Source of the DNA: Nemertoderma westbladi
Lineage: Eukaryota > Animalia > Xenacoelomorpha
NCBI GenBank assembly: GCA_032718475.1
Contig: JAUCBJ010000638.1
Span: forward strand, 1 to 53,224
DNA length: 53,224 bases
Reading direction: 5' to 3'
In this document: positions 1,391-49,395 of the stretch, one piece after another
How the letters are laid out: the number at the start of each line of letters is the position of its first letter
Position numbering within the stretch: position 1 is the first letter of the stretch
Position numbers and translations under genes: made by a program
The notes under the pieces: model-generated
Told to the model about the DNA's origin: nothing
Seen by the model: only the letters and a program-made list of their open reading frames with translations
Databases searched by the model: none

Positions 1391-1404
1391 TACTAAACAA
1401 TAGT

Positions 1405-6608: not shown

Positions 6609-6889
6609 ATAACAGTTATTGTCTTTATTGCAGTAAGCAATAAAGTTGAAAGTACCGGTCGACCGGTAAACCTGAACCGGTACTTCTGTAGGTCAGTAGG
6701 CCCAACTGTCCTAACCGGTACTTCCAGTATAAGTACATTAGTATTGTTCGATTTTGATTATTGTATACCGGTAGGTCTCGATATTAAATCGGGGACGCCT
6801 GGTTTTTATTGGGATTTTACTTAGGTCTATTTCTGTCAGTTTTATTTCCAAGTAAGTTAATATTGAGCTGAAGACGTGTAAGTCTGCTC

Positions 6890-8782: not shown

Positions 8783-11700
8783 ATGGCTGACACAAGGCAA
8801 ACTCTGTCAGATAGTCTCCTAGAAACAACAGCCTGTTTCTCAGATCAAAGTGTAGAGAATCCCAGACCGAGGTCTGAAACCCCTCATACTGTAAGAAGGG
8901 AAACCCCTGCAGTGGTTGTGACAGAACCTGGGTTGGTAGAAAAGATTTCGCAATTTGCGAAGTTAGTGAAGCGCCGTTGGTCTGCCATAGGTACTCGGGC
9001 CCAAGTCAAGCGGGATCAAGAAGAAGCTATAAAACAGCAGCAACCTCCTAGCCAAGAACCTAGTTCTCAGCGGCCCGATAGCTCCAGTAGTTCGGATACT
9101 GTTGAGCGGACGCCCGAACGCGGAGCGAAGATGGCGGATACGGTTTATGATGAGCGGCCAACCTATGAAGAATCAACCGACGCCACTTCTTCTCAAGTGG
9201 AAAGCGAGGTGGAAAGCGAAGTGGAAAGCGAATTAACAGCAGCAGAGAAGCCGCGAACTAGAGACGCCATTGACATCTCTCTGTCAGACTATCAGCGATT
9301 CATAGGAGACGAAGAGTTGAGGAGACGACTGTCTGGACTTCGCCCTAATAGTGAAGGAACCAAGCTTGTGTTGGACGCAATCGATGCGGAAATGTTAGCT
9401 GCAAACCAAGCCAAATTTGATGAAAAACTCCGCCTCGCTAGAGTCCAAGAAGAACAAGTAAAGAAAAAACGGATAGAGGACAGAAAGGCAGTAGCAGCGG
9501 CGAAAGCGGCAGCGGCAGTGGAAGCGGCAAAGGCAGTAGCATCGGCGAAAGCGGCAGAGGCAGTAGCAGAAGCAAAAGCGGCAGCGGCAGTGGAAGCAGC
9601 CAAAGCAGCAGCAGCAATGGCATTGGCAGACGCAGAACAGAGAGCGTCTGAAGAGACCACACAACTGGAGTTGGAAAATCTTCAAGAGACGCAAGACTGC
9701 ATAAATAAACAGTTAACTGCTAGTCAAATGCAGATGAGGAGTCGATCTACTCCCAAGCGCCAAGGATACACATCATCGGAGGAAGGCGAGACCACCGATC
9801 CTGAAGGCGGAGGAAATAGATCTCGTCTAAGCAGGCGTAGAAAAACATCTCACCGTCACAAATTGCCTGATTTGCCCCCAGCGGTTAGAAGACAACTAGC
9901 TAGCACAGACTTAGGTAGTACAGAACCCACAGAACAAATTATTCAGGTCAAAGGACTCCCTACAATAGTTGATGAGCCTGAAATAATTGGGCCTGTCGTT
10001 CCCAAAGCCACTCCTGTGCTAGAGACCCCTGTACTTCCAGAGCTTAACTCTAAATTCCCTTTACACAGTACTACACTGCCTGTACCCGGTAGAACAGTCC
10101 ATGAGAATATCCCTGTCCTGGAAGCTGAGAGAGAAATCAAAGATTTGTCTCCCATCGTCCCACGTCAGCCCGCTACAATGTTGGCGACTCCCGCTTCGGC
10201 GGTCGAGTGGGTAGAGGAGGGACGGCGGGGGATGAATCTCCTGCTCGGACAGATGCAGGAGACTGTCTACCAACTTAAGGGAACAGTAAGGGAAGGTAGG
10301 GCCGAATTGCAAGAAGTGCAGCAAAGTATCGCGCTAGAACGCGACAAATTAGTCAACATACAAAAAGGTATACCCATACCCCCTGTAACATTGTGTCAGC
10401 CTGTTAGGTCTGAAGTATTACATGCGCAAGGTGTGGAGCCTACACGCATCTATACTGCTAGTGAAGTAGAAACTCCTATAGCAAACCCTGTTAAGGGTGA
10501 TTATAGACCTGTTGTTAATGATATTCCCTATAGACCTGATAATGATCCGAGAAATTTATATACCGATAATTCGATATTAAATAACACGATGGCCCAAGAA
10601 AGCTTTACGCGTCAGATGGCTAGAACAGAAGCCCGCCAAGCGGTCAAAGTGGGAGAGATCGTCAAATTCAATGGAGATGAGATGAAATGGTTACCTTTCA
10701 ACGAATATTACAAAGACAGCATACAGAACTCTGTGCTATCTAACGGAGAGAAACTTAGGTTCCTCATCAAGTGCTTGGAAGGACCTCCCAAGTTAATGGC
10801 TTTAAAGCTTATTGGACATCCAGAAGGATTAAGACAAGTTTGGGATACATTAAACATCAGGTATGGTAACAAGGATAACATAGCTAAGTATTTGTATGCA
10901 AAATTAGTAGCCCCCCGAAACTTCCTTAGTAGCGGGATTATAGAGTTTTCCGATGAGATTCAGGAGATCTGTAGACAATTGGACTGGTTAGGTAAGTCTC
11001 ATGAATATCAGAGTTCCATGGTTATTGGAGCCGTAGTCTCTACTTTACCCAAGGGTGGAGTATGTACACGCTGGGACAAGAAAGTGTTGTATATGAATGA
11101 GCAGCAACGACGAAGCCCTACCATGGCTGATCTCATGTCCTTCTTAGATAGTGAAGTAAAATTACAACTCATAAAGCAGTCCAGAGAGAAAACATCGGAA
11201 AATAAGGTAAGTGAGAAACCCGTTTCTAGGAGAAGGATAATACCAGTGTATTATACTGACGACGGCGAAAGCCAAGCCTCTCAAGAAGAGGACAGCGGGA
11301 AAGACACAGCAAAATCTTACTATGACAACAAGACCTATAAAGACGTAAGTAAATACAAGTCTCGAACCAGTGACAGGAGAGAACAGGTAACAACAACCCC
11401 TCCTACGTCTCCTAAGAGAATTTACGGAAGAAAGCCCGAAGAAAGAACGAGAGTGCATAACGTTACCCAAGGTAAGGTGAGTAACATCAAACCAAAATGT
11501 GCGCTGTGCGACGGGCCCCACCGTTTGAGTGCGTGTGCTGAATTTCTAAAGAAATCCCTTGTAGACAGACGTACAGTCCTGTGGAATAAGCGGTTATGCT
11601 ATAATTGCCTCAGACCAGGACACCAACGGCGAACCTGTTACTCCGACATAAAGTGTGCAAAGTGTGACGCGAAACATCACATCTTGTTACACAGTGAGTT

Positions 11701-11929
11701 CGAACGAGACAAACAGAGTCAGGTAAGTGAGCCCGAACTACATGTCCAATTCAGTGATGTAAATGACACTGATCAGGAGTCTGAGATGGAAGGATTCTAT
11801 ACTGACGAATTCTCCGACGCCAACGAATCCTGTTACCTAATCAATACCGCGGTGTATCGAGCACTTACTTATGAAAAGGACACCGAAAATGAGTTCCCCC
11901 CAACTACCTTTGACAGACAACCAAACTAG
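8783..11929 (+). CDS. gag: BEL/Pao Gag with ~600-aa N-terminal extension
   Basis: Capsid-like DUF1759-type segment KFNGDEMKWLPF...EKLRFLIKCLEG; three knuckles CALCDGPHRLSAC, CYNCLRPGHQRRTC, CAKCDAKHHILLH; Ala/Lys/Glu coiled-coil repeats in the N-terminal part. Confidence 0.93.
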   Translation: MADTRQTLSDSLLETTACFSDQSVENPRPRSETPHTVRRETPAVVVTEPGLVEKISQFAKLVKRRWSAIGTRAQVKRDQEEAIKQQQPPSQEPSSQRPDSSSSSDTVERTPERGAKMADTVYDERPTYEESTDATSSQVESEVESEVESELTAAEKPRTRDAIDISLSDYQRFIGDEELRRRLSGLRPNSEGTKLVLDAIDAEMLAANQAKFDEKLRLARVQEEQVKKKRIEDRKAVAAAKAAAAVEAAKAVASAKAAEAVAEAKAAAAVEAAKAAAAMALADAEQRASEETTQLELENLQETQDCINKQLTASQMQMRSRSTPKRQGYTSSEEGETTDPEGGGNRSRLSRRRKTSHRHKLPDLPPAVRRQLASTDLGSTEPTEQIIQVKGLPTIVDEPEIIGPVVPKATPVLETPVLPELNSKFPLHSTTLPVPGRTVHENIPVLEAEREIKDLSPIVPRQPATMLATPASAVEWVEEGRRGMNLLLGQMQETVYQLKGTVREGRAELQEVQQSIALERDKLVNIQKGIPIPPVTLCQPVRSEVLHAQGVEPTRIYTASEVETPIANPVKGDYRPVVNDIPYRPDNDPRNLYTDNSILNNTMAQESFTRQMARTEARQAVKVGEIVKFNGDEMKWLPFNEYYKDSIQNSVLSNGEKLRFLIKCLEGPPKLMALKLIGHPEGLRQVWDTLNIRYGNKDNIAKYLYAKLVAPRNFLSSGIIEFSDEIQEICRQLDWLGKSHEYQSSMVIGAVVSTLPKGGVCTRWDKKVLYMNEQQRRSPTMADLMSFLDSEVKLQLIKQSREKTSENKVSEKPVSRRRIIPVYYTDDGESQASQEEDSGKDTAKSYYDNKTYKDVSKYKSRTSDRREQVTTTPPTSPKRIYGRKPEERTRVHNVTQGKVSNIKPKCALCDGPHRLSACAEFLKKSLVDRRTVLWNKRLCYNCLRPGHQRRTCYSDIKCAKCDAKHHILLHSEFERDKQSQVSEPELHVQFSDVNDTDQESEMEGFYTDEFSDANESCYLINTAVYRALTYEKDTENEFPPTTFDRQPN

Positions 11930-12795
11930 CCGAAGATATCTTTGCTGGACAACCCAAATTCCGGACTAAATTGAATATGTCAGGAATTATGCAGGTTTGG
12001 AAATCTACCCTAACGGCAGACTACTATGTAGGTGTGTTGTCCACCCCCCAGGATAAATTAGGAGCACAAGGTATAAGGTCGGTAAAAATGGTGGCTATAA
12101 AGAACTTCGCTACTACCCAAGCAGACCTTTATAATTGGGACGAGGATGAGAGCATCCAACATCTTAAGATACCTCGATTCCAGACAGATTATCCTGGAGT
12201 GCAAATACTCATCGGCCAAAACGCGCATGAGGCGCTCGAGACATTGGAGAAACGGCCTGCTCAACCGCAGCCACTACAAACCTATGCGGTAAGAACTAGA
12301 GTAGGTTGGTACTTCACTGGCCCTTCCCGTAGAACTCTCAAAGAGAGATTACCTCAACAACAGGTATACCAAGTAAAGGAATGGGAAGTGGAGAGCAGTG
12401 ATGTGGACGATCCAACTGAGGGAACACCATACTCCTCAGATAATGACGATATTAACTCCAATGTAGATCAATGGAGACATTGCCTTGGGACGATTAATCC
12501 AGCCGACATCGCTTCCAGAGGAGCAACTCCTCAAGAACTAATAGATACTCCAGGCTGGTTAGGTGGATCCGACTTCTTAAGTAAAGAAGAAGAAGAATGG
12601 CCTCCTCATCTTACCACGGCGGAGGTTAGACAGGCCAAGGGAGCGGAGAAAGTAACACAACAACTCAATCGCCCAGCTAGTCGTTTATGTTTACTGGAAA
12701 GAGACCGAAAACTGTCCGGAAACTATGGAAGACAAGATACTCTTCCTACGACTACTTACCTAATCCGACAAATATCTAGGGACTCCATAACGTGA
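11914..12795 (+). pseudogene. pol: Internally deleted BEL/Pao pol remnant (protease tail + RNase H tail + integrase tail in one frame)
   Basis: ILIGQNAH...AVRTRVGWYFTG (BEL protease C-terminal part), QWRHCLGTINPADIASRG...WLGGSDFL...WP (Pao RNase H end), RPASRLCLLE (integrase C-terminal end); no DSG/DTG, no YxDD, no HHCC/DDE core. Confidence 0.88.
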
Positions 12796-24527: not shown

Positions 24528-25973
24528 GGGTGAGTACAAAACAAAGACCAAAGTCTGCCCGTTCTGTACAAAACAAAGAAGTAAAGTCGCATTAAGTCCC
24601 AAAGAGCGTTAGGTCCCAAAGAGCGTTAGGTCCCAAAGAGCGTTAGGTCCCAAAGAGCGTTAGATCCCAAAGAGCGTTAGGTCCCAAAGAGTGTTAGGTT
24701 CCAAAGAGCGTTAGGTCTCAAAGAGCATTAGGTCCCAAAGAGCGTTAGGTCCCAAAGAGCGTTAGGTCCCAAAGAGCGTTAGGTTCCAAAGAGCGTTAGG
24801 TTCCAAAGAGCGTTAGGTCCCAAAGAGCGTTAGGTCCCAAAGAGCGTTATGTACCAAAGAGCGTTAGGTCCCAAAGAGCGTTAGGTCCCAAAGAGCGTTA
24901 GGTTCCAAAGAGCGTTAGGTCCCAAAGAGCGTTAGGTCCCAAAGAGCATTAGGTCCCAAAGAGCGTTAGGTCCCAAAGAGTGTTAGGTTCCAAAGAGCAT
25001 TATGTCCCAAAGAGCGTTAGGTCCCAAAGAGCGTTAGGTCCCAAAGAGCGTTAGGTCCCAAAGAGCGTTAGGTCCCAAAGAGCATTAGGTCCCAAAGAGC
25101 GTTAGGTCCCAAAGAGTGTTAGGTTCCAAAGAGCATTAGGTCCCAAAGAGCGTTAGGTCCCAAAGAGCATTAGGTCCCAAAGAGCGTTAGACCCCAAAGA
25201 GCGTTAGGTCCCAAAGAGCGTTAGATCCCAAAGAGCGTTAGGTCCCAAAGAGTGTTAGGTTCCAAAGAGCGTTAGGTCCCAAAGAGCGTTAGGTCCCAAA
25301 GAGCATTAGGTCCCAAAGAGCGTTAGGTCCCAAAGAGTGTTAGGTTCCAAAGAGCATTAGGTCCCAAAGAGCGTTAGGTCCCAAAGAGCGTTAGGTCCCA
25401 AAGAGCGTTAGGTCCCAAAGAGCGTTAGGTCCCAAAGAGCGTTAGGTCCCAAAGAGCGTTAGGTCCCAAAGAGCGTTAGGTCCCAAAGAGCGTTAGGTCC
25501 CAAACAGCGTTAGGTCCCAAAGAGCGTTAGGTCCCAAAGAGCGTTAGGTCCCAAAGAGCGTTAGACCCCAAAGAGCGTTAGGTCCCAAAGAGCGTTAGGT
25601 CCCAAAGAGTGTTTAGGTCCCAAAGAGCGTTAGGTTCCAAAGAGCGTTAGGTCCCAAAGAGCGTTAGGTCCCAAAGAGCGTTAGGTCCCAAAGAGCGTTA
25701 GGTCCCAAACAGCGTTAGGTCCCAAACAGCGTTAGGTCCCAAAGAGCGTTAGGTCCCAAAGAGCGTTAGGTCCCAAACAGCGTTAGGTCCCAAAGAGCGT
25801 TAGGTCCCAAAGAGCGTTAGGTCCCAAAGAGCGTTAGGTCCCATTTCCATTTAAAGGATCAGGTTACAGAGACGTGTTGGGGGAACCACAAAAATAAACA
25901 AAAGTTACAAGATGTTACAAGATTATGCAGGTCTTTATACATTGGGTCTTTGGTTTTTGTTTTATACTCATCC
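24528..25973. mobile_element. TIR element enclosing the 17-bp satellite
   Basis: GGTGAGTACAAAACAAAGACCAAAGTC at ~24529 is inverted to GGTCTTTGGTTTTTGTTTTATACTCATCC ending ~25973. Confidence 0.6.
24591..25843. repeat. 17-bp minisatellite (GTTAGGTCCCAAAGAGC), about 73 copies
   Basis: Uninterrupted tandem array with single-base variants and no unique spacers. Confidence 0.97.
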
Positions 25974-28950: not shown

Positions 28951-29487
<537 letters not shown>

Positions 29488-30188: not shown

Positions 30189-31236
30189 TTATAATATAAT
30201 AATATACACCCGGGGTAAATTAATTGAAACTGCTAAAATAAGAACTGTAAAAGGACGCACTATTAGTAAAATATGTATAGTTAGTGATATAAAAAATAAA
30301 TATTAATTTAATTATAATAAAATAAAAGTTGATTAGTGTATGGATGCCTCATGGTAGGTTTGCTAGTGTGGATAACGAGGTGCTGCAGGGGCACGCAAGG
30401 TCATGGTAGAGGTTGTCACAGCGGAGCGCGTAGAAACTGCATACGCACTCCGAGGTTCTCGTATGGAATGGCTGGCAGTTGCAGCATAGTTTGTGATGGA
30501 GCCCATGGGCCGTTGTACGCATTACTAGCGAGCGGATTTTCTGTCCGGGGCCCTTCCATGAGAACTGGAAAAACCCTTTCGTTATAATTATATGATGTTA
30601 GACAACCACGGCTTCAGGGGGATTGAGATATTAATATAGCTTATAGCATATATTAATATATGCTAGGTAGTATCTGAGGGAATAAGACCCCATGTCCTAT
30701 TTTATTGCTTTCGTTATAAGTCCGTTTTTATCAACGCACAACTCGGACGTATTAATAATTATGTGACAACACCATTGTGATTGGCATCCTGATTGGGAAT
30801 ATCGCCTCAATTTTGGGATCCGCTGATTTCACCTCCGAGGGGCGGATGTACAACACACTGGAGCCACAGTATAGCGTCAAAGAGTTGTTTTTAACATTTT
30901 AAAGTTTTAGTGTTTTAATTAAATAAAAGTACATTTTGTTTAATATTACTAAATCGTAATTATACTTTATATTACTCCTATCAGACTGTTTTTATTCGTG
31001 CTGTGCACTTTTTATTTCACCTATTATACTATTTAATTAAATTTAATGTAAATCATTTATTAACTTTAATTTTCATCTCGGGATCGAATCAGATGTCACC
31101 AATAAACCAAGGGCTACTTTAGTAAATAACTGGGAATTGTGTACTGGTATATATGAATAGTAATTATTTTAGTAAATAACACATAACATATTATTTTTAA
31201 TAAAAAATATACACGTATATATATTATTGGATTTAC

Positions 31237-34200
31237 CTAGTAGAATAATCGTTAAATACAATATTTCCTTCATTTGGCCAGCTCTCTGGCGGTCTGTTAC
31301 TCTCAATATACCAAGGGGCCTCCTGTTTGCAATCTGTATACTCCTTTAATCTCTCCACGCTTACTATATTTGCTTCCATCTCGGCGTACTGCAACACGAG
31401 TTGCGTCATAGCGATCGTAACACTGAGCGCATAGGTGACTGAGAGCCCGACAACACCAGGGGTCAAATCGTCGCGACTTATAACGGCAAAAAGAGCAGCA
31501 AAAAATACTACAAAAGCCGCCATCGACTCTAGCAGCACTGACATCCAACGGTAACAGCAGATAACCATGAAGTTACATTGGGTGTTGCTGTCGATTGCCT
31601 CCAGGTTCTTATTGATAAAGGCGCTGTTCATTCTATAAGCTCGAATCGTACTCATTCCGACTAAAGTCTGTTGGAAGTTTGTGTAGATGGGGCTTCTACT
31701 CACTGATTCGATTCTCTTCACTTGTCTATTTGTATTGATATAGAAGCGAAGGATAAGATAATATATGATTGCTATTGGGACAAGAGCTATGGTGAACAAT
31801 GGTGTAGCCGTAATTATAATCACACAAACTAGGATTACCATTGTGGCCTGCGATAAAAGAAAGGAAACATTGAAAGGCAACACAACATCGACTGTGTCTG
31901 TGTCCTTTCCAAATCTATTTAGGATTCGACCCATTGGTGTGATGTCGAAGAAACTCATAGGACATCGAACTAAATTGAACAACATATTTTTGTGTAGATT
32001 TCGTGAACTTCGCAATGAGTTTATCGCCAACAATGAAAAAGCAGCCATTGTAAAGCATGAACTTACAACCCCAAACATGCCATATAATCCCAAATAATAG
32101 CCCCTGTCTTCAGATGACTGTGTACCATTTAGTGGCATGCTATTGGTCCATTCCGTCAGCCATAAATCCCCAGCAACAATGGAAATGCTTTGTAAAACAA
32201 AGGCAGCCATCATACATAGAGCTCCAAAAAATCCCATTGACTTAATATAGGCATAATAAACAGCTGTTTTAACCTCCTTTTCTTCTATTTTTTCATTTTC
32301 AACCAGCTTCCCTGCTTTTTCTTTAACAATTTGATCCTTGAAATAAATTTCACCTCTTTTCACAGGATCTTGCCATGGTTGAACGTTTGACTGATGCCGC
32401 TTTTGTTTCGCTTGTTTCTTTGTTTGTATTTCAGAGTCATCTCCAGAAGTAGTTGCCCCAGATTTCCCAGAGTCTCTGCTTCGCATCCGCTGTATTTTAT
32501 GTTTAACAGCCTCTGGGGCAGCATCAGTCCGCAGACCTAGCACAACCTTGTCACCTTCTGCCTCAGATATCTCACTTAATATATCTTCATGTATACTAAA
32601 TGTGATAGGGTCAAGTTCATCTTCATCATCCTCAACATCATTGTCTTTAGAAAATGTCTTCATCAGTTCTGCAAATGGCCCTTCTATACTTATTAATTCA
32701 AAATATGACCCTATTTCTGAAATCGTTCCTTCACTTAGAACAATAACCATATCACACTTAGGAAGAAAATGTATACCATGAGTTACTAGCAGGCGGGTTT
32801 TATCCTTAAGAACTCCATTTGGTCCAATTACTTGCTCAAAGATGTGCCTTCCAACATGGGCATCAACTGCACTTAGTGGGTCATCTAAAATGTAGAGATC
32901 TTTGTTGGCGTAAACTGCTCTTGCTATACTTATTCGCTGACGTTGACCTCCGCTGATATTGATTCCCTTTTCTCCAATCTCAGTTTGGTCACCACCCTCA
33001 AGCAATTCAATATCAGGAACTAAAGCGCATCTTTCAATAGTATCCAAATACCGCACCTTCTCAAATTGAGACTCAAATATTATGTTGTTTTGCAATGTCG
33101 TATTGACCACAAACGGCTGTTGAGGTACATAGGCTAGGCTTGGTATTATTTGAACATCTCCTTCAATTTTTTCCATTTCACCGAGTATAGCCGAAACTAA
33201 AGAACTCTTTCCGGCTCCAACTGTACCCACTATACCAACTAGAGCACCAGATGGAATGTCTAAATTGATATTTGAGAGTGTTGGCAATATATCCCCTGTT
33301 TCCCATGCAAATTTACCATTGCATATCGATACGGACAACCCCAATCTTGGATTATTACCTATGCTGCTTTCACACTTTTCTTCTAATAGTAGAAATTTAG
33401 ACAATCTTTTCAATGATACTTGCACCTGTGTTACTTGTGAAATTAGCATCGGAATTACCATCATTGGTATTCGTAAAAGATTAAACAGAGATAATGCCGT
33501 AAAAGCAATTTCAGCAGTTAGACTGTTCCCCATCATCACGTATGTGGAAAATGATACTAGATTGACAAGAAATGGTGATATGTAAAACAACATCATTGTG
33601 GCTGAACGTAAGATAGATCCCTTAAACAGCTCGTTTAGTTCAATTTCCCTCAGGTTTGTTATCATATTAAACATTGGAAGCTCACAGCCATATATTTTAA
33701 TTACCTTTATTCCTGTGAGTAATTCATTTTCTTTTTTCATTCGTTTATCCTTGAGGCGCATTTGAGCGGCATAGAATTTCCGAGCAAATGTAGCAATCAA
33801 TCCAGTTAAAGGCATCATTGCTATAAGAACAGCCAAACCTGCAAATGCTGCAGGGCCTATCACATTATACAGCAGACCAATCTCTATAACTAGTGTTACT
33901 ACAGAGGCCCATATAAAGGTGCTCAACATTGAGAAGTCGAAAAGCCGTTGAGAATCGAGAGCCATGAGGTTGACAATTTCCCCAGTGCTTGATTCATTCC
34001 TGGATTTGTTGGAAAGCCGCATTGATTTTTTGTATATCATGGATATAATTGCTGCTCTAACACGCAGTCCTAAGCCCTGAGTGAGATAGTAATGGTAGTG
34101 GGTGCACATAGACTTTCCTAGTCCTAAAAACAAAAAAACAACTGCATAAAGATATCCATGCCAGGCAATCTGTTCATCACTGCTCACAAATGCAATAAAT

Positions 34201-35318
34201 TGCTGAAGTATCACTGGGTTCAGGTGCATGAAGGTGATTCCCAGAGCATAATAGAATGATGCACCACAGTAAGTGAAAGCTGAGAAACGCCAGATGGCCT
34301 TCCACAGACGGGGATTAGCTTGAGCTTTCAGGGGGGCTTCATTCGGTGGTGTAGGGATGTGTTCACTTTGCTGATAAGAATTTTGGTATGAAGTTTTATT
34401 CAATAATGATGCAGTTTCGTACGATTTTTGATTTTTATCAATCAAAGGATGGTTCTCCGTTTCTGTATCATCTTGCGAGGTTTTTCGCCGAAAAGCAGAA
34501 CTTGCATGCCTCTTCCTAGGAGCGGGCGCATCACTCACTTTTATAGTCTTTCTTAACTCCTTGTTCCATTCTCGCATTAAATTGGATTCTTGTCTACTAA
34601 CGATATCACATTCTCGAATTGTGTAAAGGTCATCATGTTTCAATGCTCGTCTGAAACCTTTAACCATTATTTTAGTCATCCAAAGGAAAGTGACCTTTAT
34701 CGGGTAAGAGCTTCTGTAATCAGGATTTGAATTCGGGTCTTTCTCCTCAGGGATGTGGGAGTAACGGCCATCCGGGATAAACATTAAAATCAATTCGAGG
34801 AAAGTTGATCCCGTAATGACAAAAAACATGACTACGGTAAGACTCTCAGTGTCCACTTCCATCCGATTCAGAAGAGAGTAAAGATTTAAACTTACAGCCA
34901 GGGTTTGCAAAATCCAAAAAATAAATGAAAGACCTGAAGGTTGGACTCCATGACGCCTTTCGATCTGCATAATTAAAATCAGAAAGAGTAGGGAAGCAAT
35001 TGCTATTGGGGGTCCTGTGAAGTAAACTGGATATACATATTGTGTGCTATTAAGCATTAACTTAGAGATAAGAACGACCCCATAACATATAATACATAAA
35101 ACTATTAGGAATACCCTTAGCAGGTGGACTTTCGATAAAGGGTTCGCTGGCCGTTTTCCTTTTAATAATGAGATAATGTAAAATGGTCCGAAGATCCATA
35201 GGACTACAACGGGTCCGCACATTAGGATAGACCATTGGAAGCATTTTGAGAAATCGGGATCAACATTGAACCATGTTTGGTTTATATTCCAAAATTCCCC
35301 TTCACAGAATTTATTCAT
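31237..35318 (-). CDS. ABCC1: ABCC/MRP1-like transporter, coding exon 1 (TMD0-TMD1-NBD1-TMD2); spliced product about 1591 aa
   Basis: N-terminal FCEGEFWN...PDFSKCFQ TMD0; Walker A GTVGAGKS; EIGEKGINISGGQRQR signature; LDDPLSAVDAHVG; donor AG|GTAAAT at 31236. ABCC1/2/3 group; exact orthologue uncertain. Confidence 0.95.
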
Positions 35319-36234
35319 GGTGTTTCTTTTTTGTGTAGTTCTTCTCCTCTGATAATTTATAATATGGTCACTGTAGCAACCATCTCACGTCGATAAATAT
35401 TACATCAGCATTAACTCTTATTGGTAATAGTTATTTGAAAGATTTTTCTTACATTTTAATTTTGTTGGCCTGACTACAGTAACATTTCAAAGAAAAATAA
35501 CTGTAAATAAAAAATTAATTTAATGTTAAATTAAAAACCGGTCGAGTTTAACATCACTTCACATTGTATTATTCTATTATTATTAGAAAATTAGATTATT
35601 TTTTATTAGAAATTGGTGGAGAACGTGTTATTCAACCTGACTGTCTGTTCAGGTTCTGAATTCAAATGTATTCTAGTTCAGCTGCTCAATCAGGAAATCT
35701 TATAAGATGCGGTATGTAATGCGACAGGCTCTGGATGCAGGAAATATCATATAAACTGGAGAGTTTCGCCGAATATTTGTAAAGTAACCAAATGGGTTTG
35801 CCATTGTGCTAAATATATATTTATTACAACCAACTCAGATAGGGGGGAACTCTTCACCCAATTAAAAACATCCATCCCTCTCCAGGCGAAAATCAGTTAC
35901 TCACAAAATAACTTGTTATGTTCTATACTGCAACCTGTTCTATTGGTGTTCGTTTATTGTTTTGGTTAGAATAACGTGCCACTGTATGCCGCTCCTTTCC
36001 CTTAATTTATAATTTAACATTGAGACGAGATATTAGTTTGCCGAGATAAGTGTACATTCCCCCACCACCGTATCAACCAACTAGGCCCTACATATCGATA
36101 AGATGGTATTGATGTTGCATTATTTAATGGTGCATGGTACTAAATGTAAGTGAAATCTCGTCTTTATCCACCCCATTTGCGTTAGTAACCCACCACTTGG
36201 CTATAAACCGTGCTATAAAATGTTGTACATATAC

Positions 36235-37803
36235 CGTGAGGGGGGGGGGTCATATTGACCGGGGGGGGGGGGGGGGGGGGGGGTCAATATTTCCCCCTCC
36301 CCCTCTAAAATGTACTAATTTTAACAAAAACGTCTAATGTTTTGTTTATACGTAGATTTCTCTAGACGAATACGACCGAAATTTTTTTAGAAAAAATGTA
36401 TGTGGTGGTTATATTGCAGCACCAAAATTACAAGTAGTGAACAATTTTCATATACTTTGAAAGATATAGATTTCGGCCAATTGTTTTTCAATACAGGTTT
36501 TCTGGAGCGCAAAATCCATTGCAAAATGTTTAAAAATGATCTGATTACAATAAATGGCCGTTTAGTCCTCTACGTAGGCAAAAAAATGAAAAAAAAAACA
36601 AGTAACCCGCACTTTTCGGTTTGAACACAAAATTTTTAATTCACATATACGATGCCATAAATTCACATTTTCAGGTTTTCTAGGGCGCTGATTCTAATGG
36701 AATACATTTCTAATTTGCCAGATCATTGCTGCTCGTATTTTCGGCGTAATGTGACAAATTTTGGTGCTAGCAGCAAATTTCGTACCATATCCAAAAAGTA
36801 CAAGTTTGAGATGTCCAGTGGTGTTTTTATTGATTCCATCAGATTCAGGACCCTTATACACCCGTATAACGCAAGAAACAAGATGTTACTATCTATTGAT
36901 CAATTTGCTTATTTTCAAAAATTTGGTGCTGGCACAACAATTTTCACCCACCGGCGAAAAATACAAGTTTGAAAACTCTTATGCAATTTTTACTTATTCC
37001 ATTGTATTCAGAACCCTCACAAACCCGTATAACGCAAGAAACAAGGTGACACAATCAATTGATATATTTGATGGTTTTCAAAATTTGGTGCTAGCACCAC
37101 ATTTTGCACCCACTTCCGAAAAATACAAGTTTGAGATGTCTAGTTAAATAATTATTTATTCAATTGAATTCAGAACCGCCATAAACCTCTAAAACGCGAG
37201 AAATAAGTTGTCTGAAGAATTGAACTAGTGAATGGATTTTCAAAATTTCGTGCTGGCACTGTCAAATTTTGCATATAGCATCGAAAAATGCAAGTTTGAT
37301 ACCCGTGGTGCAACTCATATATATTCCATCGAAATCAGAACAGAACACCAAATAACCCCTATTGCATAAAAAACAGGTTCAAACAATCAATTTCCAAAAT
37401 GAAATTTTTTAAAATTTGGTGATGGCACCCAAATTTGGCTCCCGCCGAAAAAAGCAAGTTTGAAATTTCTAAATTAATTTATATGAATTCCTCATAATTG
37501 CAAACACATAAAAAACCGGTGTAAATAAAAATTAGAGATGTTACAAATCATATTTGATGAAATGTAATTTTTAAAAAACGTCTAAAAAAATGGTCAAATG
37601 TTGGGTTAAAAAATGGTGCTACAGTATAACTCGAAAATACCTAATATTTTTGAAAACCGGTTTCACTATTAGCAAGACAATAGATTTTTAGGAAAAAGTC
37701 ATAAAATTTCATATTCCTAACTGCGTTTGTTTCAGAGATATAATAAAAAACCACGGGGGGTGGGGGGTGATATTGAACCTCCCCACCGGGTTTAATAGGG
37801 TCA
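36235..37803. mobile_element. Non-autonomous DNA transposon with internal ~162-bp tandem repeats
   Basis: G-rich ends with GGGTCAATAT / ATATTGAACC motifs in inverted orientation; about five diverged units containing AAATTTGGTGCT at ~36757, 36919, 37081, 37243, 37411. Confidence 0.5.
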
Positions 37804-38519
37804 ATATACCCGAGTTGAGAAAATCTATCAAACTTGAAATTAGAAACTTGAAAAGTGTTCGTCTGTTGGATAGCTTTTCAGTTGTGTAGAACTGTATTCA
37901 TGTGCGATTGTGACACTAATACCGTGGGCGCACAATACAATCAATTCACATCCCTCGCACTTTTTTTTATCAGAAAACGGGGGATATCAAAATCTGATTA
38001 AATACAGATAAAGTATTCTGCTTCGATTTCAACCCCTCCCAACAATTTGTCAAGAATCGTGCAAGTAATATCCTAAAATAGAAAGTTTAATAAAATAATA
38101 CTTAATATGTTGTAATAGTAGGAATAGAAGGCCAAATTATAAAACAAATTAATGAATCTTGAAATAATACGAAAGGGATATGTTAAGTTTATCTCATTTC
38201 ATATTATATAAGATTCGAACTTTATATGACTCGTAAATATTTCTCTATAATTGTGTAAATATAGAGAAAAATATAACACTCCCTTTTTGCATTATGATTT
38301 CAATAACAATTTCACTATCTCTTGGTTAAATACACAGTACCTTGAACTGGGAGACAGTTTGATGTAAAGGTCATTGATTCGTAATTCACATAAATAAATT
38401 GGGTTCTTAGATATATTACGCGAAATGAGTAATACTCATTTGGGTCATTAGACATTATAATTAAGCCATTAAGCCATTTTTAAGCAATTAAGCCATTTTA
38501 ATTAGGTGGGAGTGTGAGT

Positions 38520-38590
38520 GTCAGGGGCTAGTGGCTGAGCTGGTTAGCGCTACTGATGAGGCCTCTTAGGCCGAAACGAACCTATAACAT
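38520..38590 (+). ncRNA. Degenerate hammerhead ribozyme downstream of a Pol III A box (unit 1)
   Basis: TGGCTGAGCTGGTT-AGCGCTA-CTGATGA-GGCCT(CTT)AGGCC-GAAAC; 3' strands of stems III and I decayed (GAACCTATAACATT versus GTACGTATAGCGCT in unit 2). Confidence 0.65.
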
Positions 38591-38820
38591 TACACCTTTA
38601 ATTACAGTTGCAACAGCTCATCTCCAATTTATTTACTTAATATCACCAGGCAGCAATACTCGAGCTTAATATTTCTTTATTTGTACCTATTTTACTCTAG
38701 CATACTTGAGGCCGTTAGGTCCGCTGTTAAAGATAGAATATATGCAACTTAAGACTGCCCTTTCAATAGAAGTGGATTAGATGGGAGAGTGAATGTCAGG
38801 GGCAAGTGGCTGAGGTGGAT

Positions 38821-38866
38821 AGCGCTACTGAAGAGGCCTGTTAGGCTGAAACGTACGTATAGCGCT
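38821..38866 (+). ncRNA. Minimal type-I hammerhead ribozyme inside a tRNA-like cassette (38795-38887)
   Basis: Stem I AGCGCTA/TAGCGCT; core CTGAAGA (38828-38834); stem II GGCCT-GTT-AGGCT; GAAA; short stem III with palindromic GTAC loop; GUA cleavage triplet ending 38859. Confidence 0.85.
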
Positions 38867-39822
38867 GGTTCAACCCCCCGTTGTGACGCGTTTTCTCATT
38901 TTTTCCACTTCTGAACAAAACCATAATATTACACAGTTATAATTAATTACCCAATTCATATGCATTAGAAAAGCCAGCAAGCTGGCTATAAGAAGCCCGT
39001 CCATAGACAAACGTAACGTAGTGTAATTGTGTCCCTCCACATTGAACAGCTTGGCTTACAGTCTGAGAGAGAGTAATCCAAGGAGTAATCCCAGCCCCTA
39101 AATCTCATTATTAACCTATAAAACATTTAAACGGCCCAGTGCTTACAATTCAATCAGCTGGCCGCCCACCTAACATAGCAGTGAGTAAACCTTATAGATA
39201 TCCCCATAGGATTCACTGGGAAGAGCTATTCAGCTGGCGGGGTAATACATTACAAACTGACAGTTGATGTTTGCTTATTTTCTGGGAAAGAATGAGAGGT
39301 AATGTTTTTTCCACATCCTGGGGTTAACCTGCGTCGATTAATATAACTTTCATTGATCGACGAGCGATAGCTTAGGATAAGTTCATCTGACTGATATACA
39401 TACATAGTGAATATTTTTACTGTAAGAATCCGAACTGTCTTCTAATAATGGGATTTAGGCCTACATCAATGGGTTCCTTTTGTAATAAGCTGCGCAGCTT
39501 TTGGGGTAATGGGCTATATCCTATGTTATGTTGGACATATACATTTTCGGTGTATTGTTATTGTTTTACGTAATATCTATCTATCTATATTTACCTATTC
39601 CATACCCATTTATTATAATCAAATAGACCAAACAATATCGTTGCAAGTGGTAACTATATGGGCATGCAATAACGAGGCTTTAGGTTCAAAATACCGTGTG
39701 GTACTGATCAATGTTCCGGCGCAGACATCTTTCATATTTCTTCACTGGTCAATAAAATTACAAACTATGGAAGAGCGAGCCTGGGCGGAAGAGCTTAGTG
39801 CGGAAACCAACATGACTGTATA

Positions 39823-40060
39823 CGGTGGCTGATTACGGCCAATTATTTCAAATTTTTTAATGCTTTTCTCCCGGGTGATAAATGTTTTTCACCCGGGTGA
39901 TAAATGTTTTTCACCCGGGTGATAAATGTTTTTCACCAAGGTGATAAATGTTTTTCACCAAGGTGATAAATGTTTTTCACCCGGGTGATAAATGTTTTTC
40001 ACCGGGGGAAAATAAAATAATTTAAAAAATGGAAATAATTGCCCGCAATCAGCCTCACCG
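39823..40060. mobile_element. MITE with TA TSD and internal 22-bp tandem repeats
   Basis: ~40-bp TIRs CGGTGGCTGATTACGGCCAATTATTTC / GAAATAATTGCCCGCAATCAGCCTCACCG flanked by TA; about six copies of CCGGGTGATAAATGTTTTTCAC. Confidence 0.8.
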
Positions 40061-42459: not shown

Positions 42460-42585
42460 TTGTTGACCTCAGTTAGAAGATGAAATTCTAAGGCGATAAC
42501 AACATAACTAACATATTGAGGGGAAATAATAATTTCTGAATCTATACAAAAATAAACCAGGTCAGTCCAAAAAGTAAGTTACATA

Positions 42586-44547
42586 ATGTCAGCATCACGT
42601 GTCGAGGTCTCAAAGCTGAAATCTTCAAGAGCAGGTTATAAATCAGCCTGTACAAGATCCTCAAACATGTTTGATAATGCTGTACTGGAGTATGACTGGG
42701 ATGAAGACCCGGATTACTTGGAAGTCCTTGTTGAAGATTGGAAAGTTAAGGTAGAAAAGTACCAGACAGCAGAGAATGAGGTTATAGCACATCCTTTGGC
42801 CGAGTCGACGGATGCAGACCCCGAACTTTACAAACACGAGTTGGGTTTGTCAAAGGCGACAGCCAAAGTGCAGGGAATTCGACGGGATCTGGAAGCCCGG
42901 CGAACTCAACAAGGAATAAATAACTCTACAGCTAACATGAGTATATCTAACCCTCTATTACCAGACAACGTACAACCCATTTCTCAGGAGTTGCCACGTT
43001 TTTCGGCTAAATGCCCACAAAGTCTGGAGGAAGATATCGACTTCCGGGGGTTTAAGGCATGGCAAGCATTATGGGAAAATTATGCAGCTTTAATGGAACT
43101 AGGAAAGAGACCAAGAACGGTACAGGTATCGGCCTTATGGGAATGCTGCTCACCTGGGTTCCTCCGCACTGTACATAACACTTTAGGTATCCCAGCAAAC
43201 ACCAGTCGCGATGTCAGTGACATATTGGAGACAATAATTCGACATCTTCGAGAATTATGTAATCGCCATGTGGATATGAAAGACTTGTTAGCTGTTAGAC
43301 AAAAAGACAACCAGTCTATTGTCCATCTTTGCAATGAAATTGTAGAGTTAGGGGACTATGCAGATACTGCAGCAATAACACAAGATCGTCTGCATACATC
43401 ATTACTGGTGCAAGCCATTCAAAGCGACGAGGATCGAGCTAAGCTAATGGCAAAAGACCCACCAGATTTTGCTGCAGCACGAACATTCCTTACAAATCTG
43501 GAAACATCTCGAAAAGGGGCACACCAGATTGGTCAGGATTCAGGTGGGTCAAATTATAATAGCTGCGGGGTATATGCAAAGAAACCTACAGCGTACAAAA
43601 CACGCCAAACAGCAGGTCCTGTGGGGAACTTTTCTTCTGGAAAAGCAGTTTGCTCACATTGCGGAGAATATCGATCGGGCCAACATACCTGCCCAGCCCG
43701 GAAAGCAATATGCACAATTTGTAATAAAAAAGGACACTTTGGAACAGTATGCCGCAAAAATCCAAGGAGGCTAAGCGTAAGTCATTTAGATTCTCTTACT
43801 ATAGCATCTACGAAACGGACCTCTGACTATTTACCTGTAACAATTACCATAGAAAATGGTGAGAGGTATGCTCACCCAGCTTGGCCCGATACTGGGGCAG
43901 GGGTTACAGTTATGGGGATATCTGATTTTAAACACTCAGGATTGGCTGAAAGGATTTATCTTCAGCCACCTCTTAGACTGGAGATTTTAGCCATTGATAA
44001 TAAGCCCCTCATTCAAGCTGGGACATTTCAGGCAGCATTATCGGCAAATGGTTACAGTGTACAAGACACAATAGTTGTTTGTTATAATATTGAAGGTTTC
44101 TATTTATCTTTGGAAGTATGCAAGGGATTCGCAATTGCTAACCACGACTTTCCACAACCACTACAAAAAACTAAACCTACTCCTAACGAAACCATTTTTG
44201 GTAATGGGAGTAAGATTGGGTCTGAGTCAGTCCAGGCTACGGCAGAAGATACTGCTGATATAAATTCTTTGACTTTTAATTATAATAACAATGAGTCGGG
44301 TTTCAATATAATAGATGAATCCAAATCATTAAAATTGGAACCACGCAAACTAGATAAAGAAATATGGTCTGAAAGAGAAACCTGGATAACTACATTACCC
44401 AATGAACCAACATCGAAAACATTTATGGAGGTTTCAGAAATGCTTCATATAAAGTATGCAGTAGTTTTTGATGACACAGATACGTTGAAGCCTATGTGTG
44501 GACCGGTAGTAGGAGAGCCAATGAAATTTACCGCCCTTTTATATTAA
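42586..44547 (+). CDS. gag-pro: Gypsy Gag-protease, truncated at the start of RT
   Basis: Tandem knuckles CSHCG...HTCPARKAICTICNKKGHFGTVC (Mag-type); protease motif PDTGA; ends just after YAVVFDD...EPMK. Confidence 0.9.
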   Translation: MSASRVEVSKLKSSRAGYKSACTRSSNMFDNAVLEYDWDEDPDYLEVLVEDWKVKVEKYQTAENEVIAHPLAESTDADPELYKHELGLSKATAKVQGIRRDLEARRTQQGINNSTANMSISNPLLPDNVQPISQELPRFSAKCPQSLEEDIDFRGFKAWQALWENYAALMELGKRPRTVQVSALWECCSPGFLRTVHNTLGIPANTSRDVSDILETIIRHLRELCNRHVDMKDLLAVRQKDNQSIVHLCNEIVELGDYADTAAITQDRLHTSLLVQAIQSDEDRAKLMAKDPPDFAAARTFLTNLETSRKGAHQIGQDSGGSNYNSCGVYAKKPTAYKTRQTAGPVGNFSSGKAVCSHCGEYRSGQHTCPARKAICTICNKKGHFGTVCRKNPRRLSVSHLDSLTIASTKRTSDYLPVTITIENGERYAHPAWPDTGAGVTVMGISDFKHSGLAERIYLQPPLRLEILAIDNKPLIQAGTFQAALSANGYSVQDTIVVCYNIEGFYLSLEVCKGFAIANHDFPQPLQKTKPTPNETIFGNGSKIGSESVQATAEDTADINSLTFNYNNNESGFNIIDESKSLKLEPRKLDKEIWSERETWITTLPNEPTSKTFMEVSEMLHIKYAVVFDDTDTLKPMCGPVVGEPMKFTALLY

Positions 44548-44625
44548 GGGGCTAGGCCCTATAATTGATCCTATACAGTTATTACAGACCACAAACCCCT
44601 TGAATCGTTATTCAATAAATACAGT

Positions 44626-46164
44626 ATGGCTGAAATCGAGAATCCCAAGGTACAGGCTTATCGTGCTAAACTTGCAACATACAATTTTACTGTGTCATTG
44701 AGGAAAGGATCGAAACATGCGATTCCTGACGCATTATCGAGAGCCCCAGTCAGTGATCCAGAAGAAGATGACATGACCCCAGTTCATAATCATGAATCTC
44801 AGATCCATGTGAACGTAATCCAACAAGCAATATCCGATGTTGTTCCAGATCTCATATTGGATTCTCTTAGAGCCCAAGCGAACATCTGTAAGGATTACAG
44901 GGCCTTAGTAGAGGCAGTCATAAATGGGTCAGTTGCGGATAACTCTAATTCTTATATCCGTCAATTTAGTAAAATTTCTGAGGAGCTCTCAGTGGATAAA
45001 ACAAGTTCGGGTTCACTTGTGTTCCGGGGCCCACGTATTATCATACCTCCCAATGCCATAAAGGATGTCCTAAAACGACTGCATGTCAGTCATCAAGGAA
45101 TTCAGAAGACTCAACGTCGAGCCCGTCAGGCAGTATATTGGCCCGGTATTTCGAACAACATTAAGACAACTTTAGATTCGTGTGAACAATGCCAACGGTC
45201 TCATTCCTCAAATCCACCAGAACCTCTTATCCAAGAACAAGCTATGCCCACTAGACCATTCGAAATGGCTACCTCGGACCTATTTCAATATGGAGGGCGA
45301 CATTACTTAGTATATGCGGATAGATGTTCAGGGTATCCTCTAGTAGATAAATTCGATCATGATCCCACTGCTTCAGAGGTTGTCTCCATCCTTCGATATA
45401 ATTTTGCTCTTATGGGTATTCCAAATATTTTACGCAGCGATAGAGGACCACAATATAAGGCTTATTTAACTCAACAGTTCCTCAAGGAATGGGGTGTTGT
45501 GTGGAGGCCTTCATTTCCTTACCATCCACAAAGCAATGGACATGAGGAAATGATTGTCAAGATGGTTAAGGGCCTTCTAGCCAAAAGTGGTGGTGATATC
45601 AACAGCAATGATTTCCTCAGTGGATTGTTAGAGTTGCGAAATGGTCCACGGGCAGATGGTTTATCACCAGCCCAACGAATATTTGGAAGACCATTGCGTT
45701 CCCGAGTTCCCTCTAATAAGGAATCATACATCCCAGACCATTCATCACAATTTGACATTGCGAATGAAAAACGCATCATAAATGACCAAAAGAGAAAAGT
45801 TTATTACGACTACTCCACAACCCCACTCGTAGAAATCCCAAAGGGCGACCTTGTTCGGGTACAGAACCCAAAGACCACACATTGGGATCGTTTGGCTGAA
45901 GTTATACGCAGCGAACAAAACAAACGTTGCTATCTACTTCGATTTGAAAATGGACATTCGTTATGGCGTAATAGAAGACACCTAAGACAAGTGCTGAAAG
46001 ACCTAAGAACACCAAATGATATAAAGGCATCTCCATCCATACCACTATCTGGAGAGAAGGGAGAGTCAACGATAATGGACCAGAAAGTACAAAAGGATTC
46101 ACCACAACGTGAACGAATGATACCAAATCGTTTAAACTATCATCACTTTGGTGGCAGTAACTAA
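44626..46164 (+). CDS. int: Gypsy RNase H tail + integrase
   Basis: Preceded in frame by TVITDHKPL; KGSKHAIPDALSR; HHCC (LHVSHQG...CEQC); catalytic D (SDLF), D (SDRGPQY), E (SNGHEE). Confidence 0.92.
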   Translation: MAEIENPKVQAYRAKLATYNFTVSLRKGSKHAIPDALSRAPVSDPEEDDMTPVHNHESQIHVNVIQQAISDVVPDLILDSLRAQANICKDYRALVEAVINGSVADNSNSYIRQFSKISEELSVDKTSSGSLVFRGPRIIIPPNAIKDVLKRLHVSHQGIQKTQRRARQAVYWPGISNNIKTTLDSCEQCQRSHSSNPPEPLIQEQAMPTRPFEMATSDLFQYGGRHYLVYADRCSGYPLVDKFDHDPTASEVVSILRYNFALMGIPNILRSDRGPQYKAYLTQQFLKEWGVVWRPSFPYHPQSNGHEEMIVKMVKGLLAKSGGDINSNDFLSGLLELRNGPRADGLSPAQRIFGRPLRSRVPSNKESYIPDHSSQFDIANEKRIINDQKRKVYYDYSTTPLVEIPKGDLVRVQNPKTTHWDRLAEVIRSEQNKRCYLLRFENGHSLWRNRRHLRQVLKDLRTPNDIKASPSIPLSGEKGESTIMDQKVQKDSPQRERMIPNRLNYHHFGGSN

Positions 46165-48884: not shown

Positions 48885-49395
48885 CACAGACTATGCCTCA
48901 CTGAGGCATAGACTATGACTCACTGAGGCATAGACTATGCCTCACTGAGGCACTGAGGCATAGACTATGCCTCACTGAGGCACTGAGGCATAGACTATGC
49001 CTCACTGAGGCACTGAGGCTAGACTATGCCTCACTGAGGCATAGACTATGCCTCACTGAGGCACTGAGGCATAGACTATGACTCACTGAGGCATAGACTA
49101 TGCCTCACTGAGGCACTGAGGCATAGACTATGCCTCACTGAGGCACTGAGGCATAGACTATGCCTCACTGAGGCACTGAGGCATAGACTATGCCTCACTG
49201 AGGCACTGAGGCATAGACTATGCCTCACTCACTGAGGCACTGAGGCATAGACTATGCCTCACTGAGGCACTGAGGCATAGACTATGCCTCACTGAGGCAT
49301 AGACTATGCCTCACGTGAGGCATAGACTATGCCTCACTGAGGCATAGTACTATGCCTCACTGAGGCCATAGACTATGCCTTCATTAAATGAGGCA
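48885..49395. repeat. Palindromic 22/30-bp minisatellite
   Basis: Unit CTATGCCTCA-C-TGAGGCATAG-A, with variants carrying an extra CACTGAGG. Confidence 0.95.

What the first reader, a model, noticed from the sequence alone, without database searches (positions are those of the whole stretch)
38500..38905. Hammerhead ribozyme grafted into a tRNA-like Pol III cassette, in tandem units 275 bp apart
Seen: unit 2 reads GTCA...TGGCTGAGGTGG (A box) - AGCGCTA CTGAAGA GGCCT GTT AGGCT GAAAC GTAC GTA TAGCGCT (complete minimal type-I hammerhead, 38821-38866) - GGTTCAACCCC (B box) - TGAC - T runs. Unit 1 repeats the upstream flank, A box and core exactly 275 bp earlier but has decayed 3' of GAAAC. Established: minimal type-I hammerheads with a palindromic loop III occur in Penelope-like elements and small tandem retrozymes and cleave as dimers. 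Inference: the ribozyme replaces the anticodon/variable arms of a tRNA, so the internal promoter and self-cleavage site form one module; cleavage between the A and B boxes of successive units would release a ~275-nt monomer that could circularise and, once re-copied in tandem, restore the promoter. This would be a self-promoting SINE/retrozyme hybrid.
Basis: partly seen in the sequence, partly recalled or inferred. Interest (0 to 1): 0.85.

Follow-up and report, generated by a model that had tools for sequence, protein, structure and literature searches.

The report
Hammerhead ribozyme inside a tRNA promoter
This is a worn copy of an abundant, roughly 340-base non-coding repeat of an animal genome in which a hammerhead ribozyme motif sits between the two halves of a tRNA-type promoter motif, so the element likely makes its own RNA, is predicted to cut it through the middle of that promoter, and would regain a working promoter only when copied back from a circle or a tandem.

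Summary
The motifs are real: A box 38807-38818, type I hammerhead 38820-38867, B box 38867-38877, T6 38899-38904. Contigs of three studies show a high-copy family spanning about 38500-38935. The 275-bp unit is wrong. Unit 1 carries a 64-65-nt deletion (cut site, B box, T-run), and the family monomer is about 337-340 nt. This locus therefore cannot release a monomer; it is a decayed head-spacer-head insertion. No family variant is listed at an invariant core base, and the A and B boxes can pair to extend hammerhead stem I. Best reading: a non-LTR retrozyme with its own Pol III promoter, likely moved by a Penelope-type enzyme. Pol III promoter plus hammerhead with tandem rescue is published for Schistosoma Sm-alpha, but there the ribozyme follows the promoter; nesting between the boxes was not found in eight paper searches. 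Transcription, cleavage and circles are untested. This scan noted the nested layout before elsewhere in this genome (e1-10614364, e1-10653974). A fungal-looking metagenome repeat shows a similar nesting with a type III motif.

The parts
38501..38935 (+). Whole insertion: one family monomer plus a second copy of the head (head-spacer-head). Right end uncertain by about 15 nt (38935-38950).
   Evidence: Depth 23 (X1) and 31.5 (X2) at 38330-38484, 5,392-94,171 and 15,464-223,789 in bins 38516-38949; drop at 38933-38940
38501..38578 (+). Unit 1 head: upstream flank, A box (38532-38543), 5' strand of stem I, core, stem II, GAAAC; followed by a 64-65-nt deletion, so no cut site and no B box
   Evidence: bridging joints
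38587..38775 (+). Spacer, part of the family monomer; no long reading frame
   Evidence: high depth and joints 38921/38924 to 38587; longest stop-free run 54 codons in 38587-38926
38795..38798 (+). GTCA, likely 5' end of the tRNA-derived head and predicted Pol III start region; pairs with TGAC 38884-38887
   Evidence: fold; start site inferred
38807..38818 (+). A box motif; its 3' part can pair with the B box to extend stem I
   Evidence: regex; two-strand fold of unit 1 A side with unit 2 B side
38820..38867 (+). Type I hammerhead motif, predicted cut after 38859; helix III 2 bp with palindromic loop (8-bp self-duplex, -9.8 kcal/mol); G.U at 10.1-11.1 in this copy, G-C in 65-77% of family depth in X1-X3
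38867..38877 (+). B box motif, exact 11-mer, 61 nt from A-box start to 38868
   Evidence: no variant listed
38899..38904 (+). T6: predicted Pol III terminator, kept in other copies; also part of the long hairpin
   Evidence: loose-end consensus behind 38878 in X1-X3
38767..38913 (+). Long imperfect hairpin: purine-rich upstream flank pairs with the T-rich downstream flank and carries the hammerhead at its tip
   Evidence: z -2.92, 1 of 200 shuffles as stable (38762-38920); z -1.91 for 38755-38930
38914..38934 (+). AC-rich stretch at the right end, 74 nt behind the cut, where many contigs leave this window's sequence; candidate reverse-transcription start
   Evidence: loose ends behind 38933: 43 (X1), 43 (X2), 8 (X4) contigs, agreement 0.45-0.69; function inferred from PMC11167929

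Best explanation
This is a decayed copy of a high-copy, roughly 340-nt non-coding repeat family with a hammerhead motif between tRNA-type A and B boxes, likely a Pol III-transcribed retrozyme that is predicted to cut its RNA inside the promoter and is likely pasted back by a Penelope-type enzyme. Shown: anatomy, many copies, head-to-tail joins, the deletion in unit 1, low variation in boxes and core. Inferred steps: (1) TFIIIC binds the A and B boxes (61 nt apart) of an intact head and Pol III starts near 38795. (2) Many transcripts stop at the T6 and give a 110-nt hammerhead RNA; some read through the T-run-poor spacer to the next head and stop at its T6, so they hold two hammerheads. (3) The hammerheads cut, probably helped by pairing of two palindromic loops III; the partner could be the second head or the short RNA. 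(4) The released monomer starts with the B box and ends with the A box and core, so a linear one-unit copy has no promoter; ligation (RtcB-type, as in PMC7229834) rejoins A-hammerhead-B. (5) A Penelope-type RT starts in the AC-rich stretch behind the ribozyme and copies more than one round into AT-rich DNA, giving head-spacer-head insertions like this one. This copy has since lost 64-65 nt of its first head and can at most make the short RNA from unit 2.
For: Family: 790, 1497, 964 and 73 contigs of four runs (three studies) lie on 211 bases; bin depth over single-copy flank depth is 234-4,094 (X1) and 491-7,104 (X2) (summed contig depth is not a copy number, so only 'hundreds to thousands'). 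Head-to-tail: joints 38921/38924 to 38587 and 38786 to 38513, and loose ends before 38501 that read as the end of the spacer. Monomer 340 nt, GC 41%, no ORF fit the non-LTR retrozyme description (PMC7229834 passages). Constraint: none of the 40 variant rows shown (12 not shown) hits an invariant core base or the B box, apart from the free position 7; sites with a minor letter at about 8% or more in X1-X3 are 3 of 71 between the boxes and 6 of 33 in the upstream flank (Fisher p 0.027; threshold chosen by me afterwards). Of the three, one is in loop II, one turns G.U into G-C in stem II, one is the purine of the A box. Both T4 runs of this copy are broken in the family (38693 C about 99%, 38891 C about 97% in X1 and X2), leaving one T>=4 run where about 2 are expected from composition (weak). 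Human Pol III terminates only 52-73% at T4-T9 in vitro (PMC13385618 passages). PAc starts reverse transcription in an AC-rich stem loop 85-92 nt behind its hammerhead cut and nicks AT-rich DNA (PMC11167929 passages); here the right end is AC-rich, 74-90 nt behind the cut, in AT-rich flanks.
Against: No test of transcription, cleavage or circles. T6 is the usual efficient terminator in yeast (10.1101/2021.08.27.457903 passages), so Pol III may rarely make monomers. The 340-nt circle folded from this copy is no more stable than shuffles (z 0.0), whereas retrozyme circles are described as highly self-paired; only the local hairpin stands out. Of the 8 common variants in that hairpin, 5 keep a pair and 3 break one (not phased). 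A2.7 can pair with U1.7, which may hinder the loop contact (PMC11875169 passages). The tRNA cloverleaf is poorly kept (T stem 2-3 of 5 pairs, 12 instead of 7 nt before the A box; ARAGORN and Rfam find no tRNA). No autonomous partner was found; the genome is not held. In PAc the hammerhead cut is not needed for insertion in vitro, and 8 of 9 frog retrozyme dimers did not cleave in vitro.
Confidence: 0.66

Rival explanations
1. Ordinary retrozyme whose tRNA boxes are kept as RNA structure (they extend stem I) or as relics; multimers come from Pol II read-through and Pol III plays no part in copying.
For: A and B boxes pair in a 6-bp helix beyond a 4-nt bulge, which alone could explain their conservation; T6 right behind the head; tRNA fold decayed.
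Against: The whole 11-nt B box shows no listed variant, including bases outside that helix; A-B spacing and a T6 just behind the head match a tRNA gene; T4 runs in the spacer are broken in the family.
Confidence: 0.16
2. The repeat is the terminal repeat (pLTR) of a protein-coding Penelope element with a tRNA-derived promoter, and the short copies are its truncated by-products.
For: Partial-tandem layout, Penelope-like right end, no clear target duplication; earlier AI notes report this in other genomes (e1-8796959, e1-8824559; untested here). About 43 contigs per large run continue behind 38933 in unlike sequence, which could hide an ORF.
Against: The family closes on itself at about 340 nt; those loose ends agree only 0.45-0.47, as for varied flanks; no stop-free run above 61 codons in 38400-39400; helix III is present, unlike most metazoan PLE min-HHRs (PMC4209133).
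Confidence: 0.13
3. A satellite or dispersed repeat spread at DNA level, with chance or dead ribozyme and promoter motifs.
For: No Rfam gathering hit; no expression data.
Against: Chance probability 1e-2 per window for the hammerhead and about 3e-7 for both boxes beside it; core free of listed variants; stem II variant keeps pairing.
Confidence: 0.05

Closest known systems
Sm-alpha / Sj-alpha SINE-like hammerhead retroposons of Schistosoma (seen through PMC6765202, PMC2770079 and PMC2576457 passages; Ferbeyre 1998 not held, Laha 2000 not read)
   Same: tRNA-derived A/B-box promoter plus type I hammerhead in tandem repeats; single cleaved copies are dead, tandems restore transcription.
   Different: There the promoter is followed by the ribozyme and stays whole at the 3' end of the monomer; here the ribozyme lies between the boxes, the cut splits the promoter, the boxes can form the distal part of stem I, and a T6 follows the head.
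Metazoan non-LTR retrozymes (Cervera and de la Pena 2020, PMC7229834: passages and the Discussion read; Li et al. 2026, 10.64898/2026.07.22.740005: abstract and passages)
   Same: Type I hammerhead with short helix III and palindromic loop, 150-450-bp tandem unit, GC below 45%, no ORF, PLE as likely mobiliser.
   Different: Neither main text mentions a Pol III promoter or a tRNA-derived head (term counts; supplements not read).
Penelope-like elements, PAc of Anolis (PMC11167929 passages; PMC8557442 and PMC4209133 passages)
   Same: Partial tandem with a 5'-truncated copy, hammerhead in the repeat, end in an AC-rich stretch behind the ribozyme, AT-rich target.
   Different: No ORF; canonical rather than minimal hammerhead; tRNA-type boxes.
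L1Tc/NARTc Pr77 of Trypanosoma cruzi (PMC3383444, search listing and start of abstract only)
   Same: One short sequence serves as both internal promoter and self-cleaving ribozyme.
   Different: HDV-like ribozyme at the 5' end of a LINE; not a tRNA-type promoter and not a tandem circle-forming unit.

Membership tests
Metazoan non-LTR retrozyme | Canonical type I hammerhead | tested here: met
   descriptor and folds; below Rfam thresholds
Metazoan non-LTR retrozyme | Tandem unit of 150-450 bp, GC below 45-50%, many copies | tested here: met
   about 337-340 nt, GC 41%, head-to-tail joints, hundreds of contigs
Metazoan non-LTR retrozyme | No coding capacity | tested here: met
   longest stop-free run 54 codons in the monomer
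Metazoan non-LTR retrozyme | Highly self-paired monomer circle | tested here: inconclusive
   circle of this decayed copy z 0.0; local hairpin z -2.92
Metazoan non-LTR retrozyme | Self-cleavage; linear and circular monomer RNA in vivo | not testable with these tools
   bench test; only contig runs were available
Sm-alpha-type hammerhead SINE | tRNA-type A and B boxes | tested here: met
   (motif level)
Sm-alpha-type hammerhead SINE | Hammerhead downstream of the whole promoter | tested here: not met
   hammerhead lies between the boxes; Sm-alpha order from PMC6765202
Sm-alpha-type hammerhead SINE | Sequence homology to Sm-alpha | not tested
   no Sm-alpha sequence was available from a tool
Sm-alpha-type hammerhead SINE | Pol III transcription | not testable with these tools
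   needs ChIP, inhibitor or mutant test
Autonomous Penelope-like element (pLTR) | RT plus GIY-YIG ORF next to the repeat | tested here: not met
   none at this locus; other loci could not be read
Autonomous Penelope-like element (pLTR) | Partial tandem, end in AC-rich stretch behind the ribozyme, AT-rich target | tested here: inconclusive
   fits at this one locus and in loose ends behind 38933; no set of aligned insertion ends, no empty site seen
Classical tRNA-derived SINE | LINE-derived or A-rich 3' tail and target site duplication | tested here: inconclusive
   no A tail (longest A run 4); a 10-bp AT-only repeat at 38455-38464 and 38937-38946 may be a duplication or part of the element
tRNA gene | Cloverleaf with anticodon arm | tested here: not met
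   ARAGORN 0, no Rfam tRNA hit at E 10

The most novel reading that the evidence does not exclude
A recurring design, the tRNA-scaffolded hammerhead: the A and B boxes work twice, as Pol III promoter in DNA and as part of ribozyme stem I in RNA, so that cleavage cuts the promoter in two and only circles or tandems propagate; the leaky T6 makes an abundant 110-nt Pol III ribozyme RNA that acts in trans as dimer partner for the rare long transcripts; and a fungal-looking repeat has reached the same nesting independently with a type III hammerhead built on the tRNA D-arm.
Probability: 0.22. Interest if true: 0.78.

Novelty: new variant of a known kind. Interest (0 to 1): 0.5.

Why it matters
How animal retrozymes are transcribed is not addressed in the two papers on them that I could search. 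A family with its own Pol III promoter, split by its own ribozyme, gives a direct test: box mutations, terminator mutations and loop III mutations each predict a different loss (short RNA, monomer, circle). It would also show a 100-nt module that is promoter, ribozyme and terminator at once, and link tRNA-SINEs with Penelope-mobilised RNA circles. The general combination is known from Schistosoma, so the gain is the nested layout, not the concept.

Tried and rejected
No whole genome held. Genome index did not complete, so no other full copies, no alignment, no phased covariation, no partner search and no test in related species. No RNA holder listed; runs X4 and X5 are of guessed kind and were not used as expression evidence. 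Rfam gathering scan of the window: 0. Homologue search with the 268-aa ORF at 2648-3454 to place the animal: 0 of 454 candidates scored; Pfam also names nothing for it. Pattern scan of viral contigs: 6 hits, none folds as a hammerhead by eye on the MFE folds. Pattern scan of metagenomes: 5 hits, none of this family (blastn); L004 has no hammerhead match. Rejected: 275-nt monomer (deletion artefact); CUGAAGA in unit 2 as a relic of a tRNA-Phe anticodon loop (the family reads U at 38832 in about 95% of depth in X1-X3); the first T run as terminator. A resemblance of the head to eukaryotic tRNA-Asn or tRNA-Leu is recalled, not tested. Ferbeyre 1998 and Lunse 2017 were not held.

Full report
Setting. 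The window is AT-rich, repeat-rich eukaryotic DNA with an ABCC-type transporter ORF (TMD0_ABC, ABC_membrane, ABC_tran), a DUF1759 gag-like ORF and an integrase ORF; I read it as an animal genome (inference; DUF1759 as a Bel/Pao mark is recalled). The finding lies about 3.1 kb upstream of the transporter ORF, in non-coding DNA. No whole genome is held.

Observation. All motifs are at the stated places: A box 38807-38818, type I hammerhead 38820-38867 with predicted cut after 38859, B box 38867-38877, T4 at 38891 and T6 at 38899. Unit 1 matches over 86 nt at 87%, 275 bp upstream. A type I descriptor finds this 1 site in the window and 1 site in 100 shuffles; both boxes within 15 nt of a fixed site have a shuffle-based probability near 3e-7. 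Rfam has no hit at gathering level and a weak Hammerhead_3 match on unit 1; ARAGORN finds no tRNA. Helix III has 2 bp and a palindromic tetraloop: closing it costs 1.3 kcal/mol in the monomer, while two loops form an 8-bp duplex of -9.8 kcal/mol, the layout that PMC4209133 (passages) calls canonical and dimer-prone.

It is a family. Six runs were listed, four holding the stretch, from three studies, all kept as contigs; I laid four on 38740-38950 and four on 38330-39230. The left flank has the depth of one contig (23 and 31.5), the stretch 38500-38935 hundreds to thousands of times more (summed contig depth is not a copy number). One contig in each of X1 and X2 spans 38330-38530 without a difference, so the left junction is real. 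The spacer between the two heads belongs to the family.

The unit is about 340 nt, not 275. Unit 1 aligns to unit 2 with one 64-nt gap behind GAAACG; 38575-38600 repeats at 38914-38939, 339 bp on; other copies run from 38921 or 38924 into 38587 and from 38579 through 29 letters holding stem I and a B box into 38888. Most copies lack 3 nt at 38879-38882, hence 337-340 nt. Joint 38786 to 38513 and loose ends before 38501 show head-to-tail arrangement elsewhere (15 joints shown, 65 not shown). So this locus is one monomer plus a second head; its first head has lost the cut site, the 3' strand of stem I, the B box and the T-run, and its loop III equivalent no longer self-pairs (-0.5 kcal/mol). It cannot release a monomer.

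Constraint. In the 40 variant rows shown (12 weaker rows not shown) no invariant core base and no B-box base varies; this copy's own differences are at 38814, 38815, 38819 (A-box region), 38832 (free core position 7) and 38847 (stem II, G.U here, G-C in 65-77% of depth in X1-X3). Folding the A side of unit 1 against the B side of unit 2 as two strands gives stem I, a 4-nt bulge, then 6 more pairs made of A-box and B-box bases (-18.1 kcal/mol): the promoter boxes can be the distal helix of the ribozyme. The flanks form a long hairpin 38767-38913 (z -2.92), in which the T-runs pair with the purine-rich upstream flank; of 8 common variants in it 5 keep a pair and 3 break one. The whole 340-nt circle folded from 38587-38926 is not more stable than shuffles (z 0.0).

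The terminator problem. From 38795 to the end of the T6 is 110 nt. The T6 is present in the loose-end consensus of X1-X3, while both T4 runs of this copy are broken in the family. In yeast 6 Ts give relatively efficient termination but read-through is frequent (10.1101/2021.08.27.457903 passages); human Pol III terminated 52-73% at T4-T9 in vitro (PMC13385618 passages). So I expect a short RNA plus a minority that reaches the next head and holds two hammerheads, enough to release one monomer. That the short RNA acts as dimer partner in trans is speculation.

Mobilisation. About 43 contigs in each of X1 and X2 and 8 in X4 leave the window's sequence behind 38933 with low agreement, as if many copies end there; the stretch is AC-rich and 74 nt behind the cut. 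The Penelope element PAc starts reverse transcription in an AC-rich stem loop at +111-118, with its hammerhead cut at +26, and nicks AT-rich DNA (PMC11167929 passages). A 2026 preprint derives animal retrozymes from Penelope pLTRs (abstract and passages). No clear target duplication or A tail is seen. The partner is inferred, not found.

What is known. Sm-alpha is a tRNA-derived SINE-like element with boxes A and B and a hammerhead (PMC2770079, PMC2576457 passages); it consists of a promoter followed by the ribozyme, single copies are dead and tandems restore transcription (PMC6765202 passages). A hammerhead between the boxes did not come up in paper searches (listings and abstract starts; passages read only in the papers named); Ferbeyre 1998, Laha 2000, Lunse 2017, Repbase and all supplements were not seen, and the supplements of PMC7229834 could hold such an element. 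Earlier notes of this scan describe the nested layout twice in this genome (369-nt array; triple array), and a 411-412-nt family with the Sm-alpha order; a look-up by sequence found no look-alike, so I could not tell whether these are the same family. They are unchecked AI notes and are not counted as support.

A second case. One pattern scan of metagenomes (core, GAAAC, B box) gave 5 loci. Four (L001-L003, L005, one sample, one family) share about 125 identical nt with four different 3' flanks, one in an intron-bearing WD40-like gene, so probably fungal. They match Rfam Hammerhead_3 at 27.6 bits, E 0.0047, below the gathering score. Not asked for by the pattern: an A-box-like 11-mer (L003 39-49) whose D-arm-like hairpin can serve as stem I of a type III hammerhead, and a T-arm-like hairpin round the B box (L003 104-114). 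Against it: the hammerhead fold is 9 kcal/mol above the MFE and its helices have pair probabilities of 0.03-0.07, and the 5' side is cut by contig ends. It is a lead, not a result.

Verdict. A real, decayed member of an abundant retrozyme-like family; a new variant of a known kind, in which the ribozyme interrupts a tRNA-type promoter. Interest 0.5.

Noticed in passing
L001-L003 and L005, positions 1-126 (A-box-like L003 39-49, core 59-65, B box 104-114): Identical repeat in one metagenome, four different 3' flanks, probably fungal: type III hammerhead-like motif whose stem-loop I is a tRNA D-arm-like hairpin, followed by a T-arm-like hairpin with an exact B box. A possible independent case of a hammerhead between A and B boxes.
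   Followed up: partly
window 38966-39230 and beyond: A second multi-copy repeat begins about 30 nt behind the element (summed depth 580-17,000 in X1); no hammerhead core or A box on either strand in 38961-39450.
   Followed up: partly
window 38422-38500: Single-copy left flank with a 19-nt near-palindrome (38423-38441) and short tandem repeats (38461-38499) directly at the junction; may be filler made during insertion. A 10-bp AT-only repeat at 38455-38464 recurs at 38937-38946.
   Followed up: partly
window 38707-38722: A stretch of the spacer resembles the stem II region of the hammerhead and folds as its own hairpin; could be a relic or an alternative pairing partner.
   Followed up: no
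window 31233-35384 and 28951-29487, minus strand: ABCC/MRP-type transporter with 1383 codons in one uninterrupted frame and the C-terminal part 1.7 kb further on; unusually intron-poor for an animal gene of this family (recalled).
   Followed up: no
window 2648-3454, minus strand: Uninterrupted 268-aa ORF that looks to me like an unorthodox aquaporin (recalled); no Pfam family and no homologue found.
   Followed up: partly
window 39827-40054: 41-nt terminal inverted repeats enclosing 6.8 copies of a 22-bp near-palindromic unit: MITE- or foldback-like element.
   Followed up: no
window 8750-12795 and 42556-46164: Two decayed LTR retrotransposons: DUF1759 gag-like ORF and a gag-protease plus integrase pair.
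   Followed up: no
window 24592-25843, 36755-37299, 48888-49380: Satellite-like arrays: 17 bp x 73.6, 162 bp x 3.3, and an 8/22/30-bp higher-order array.
   Followed up: no
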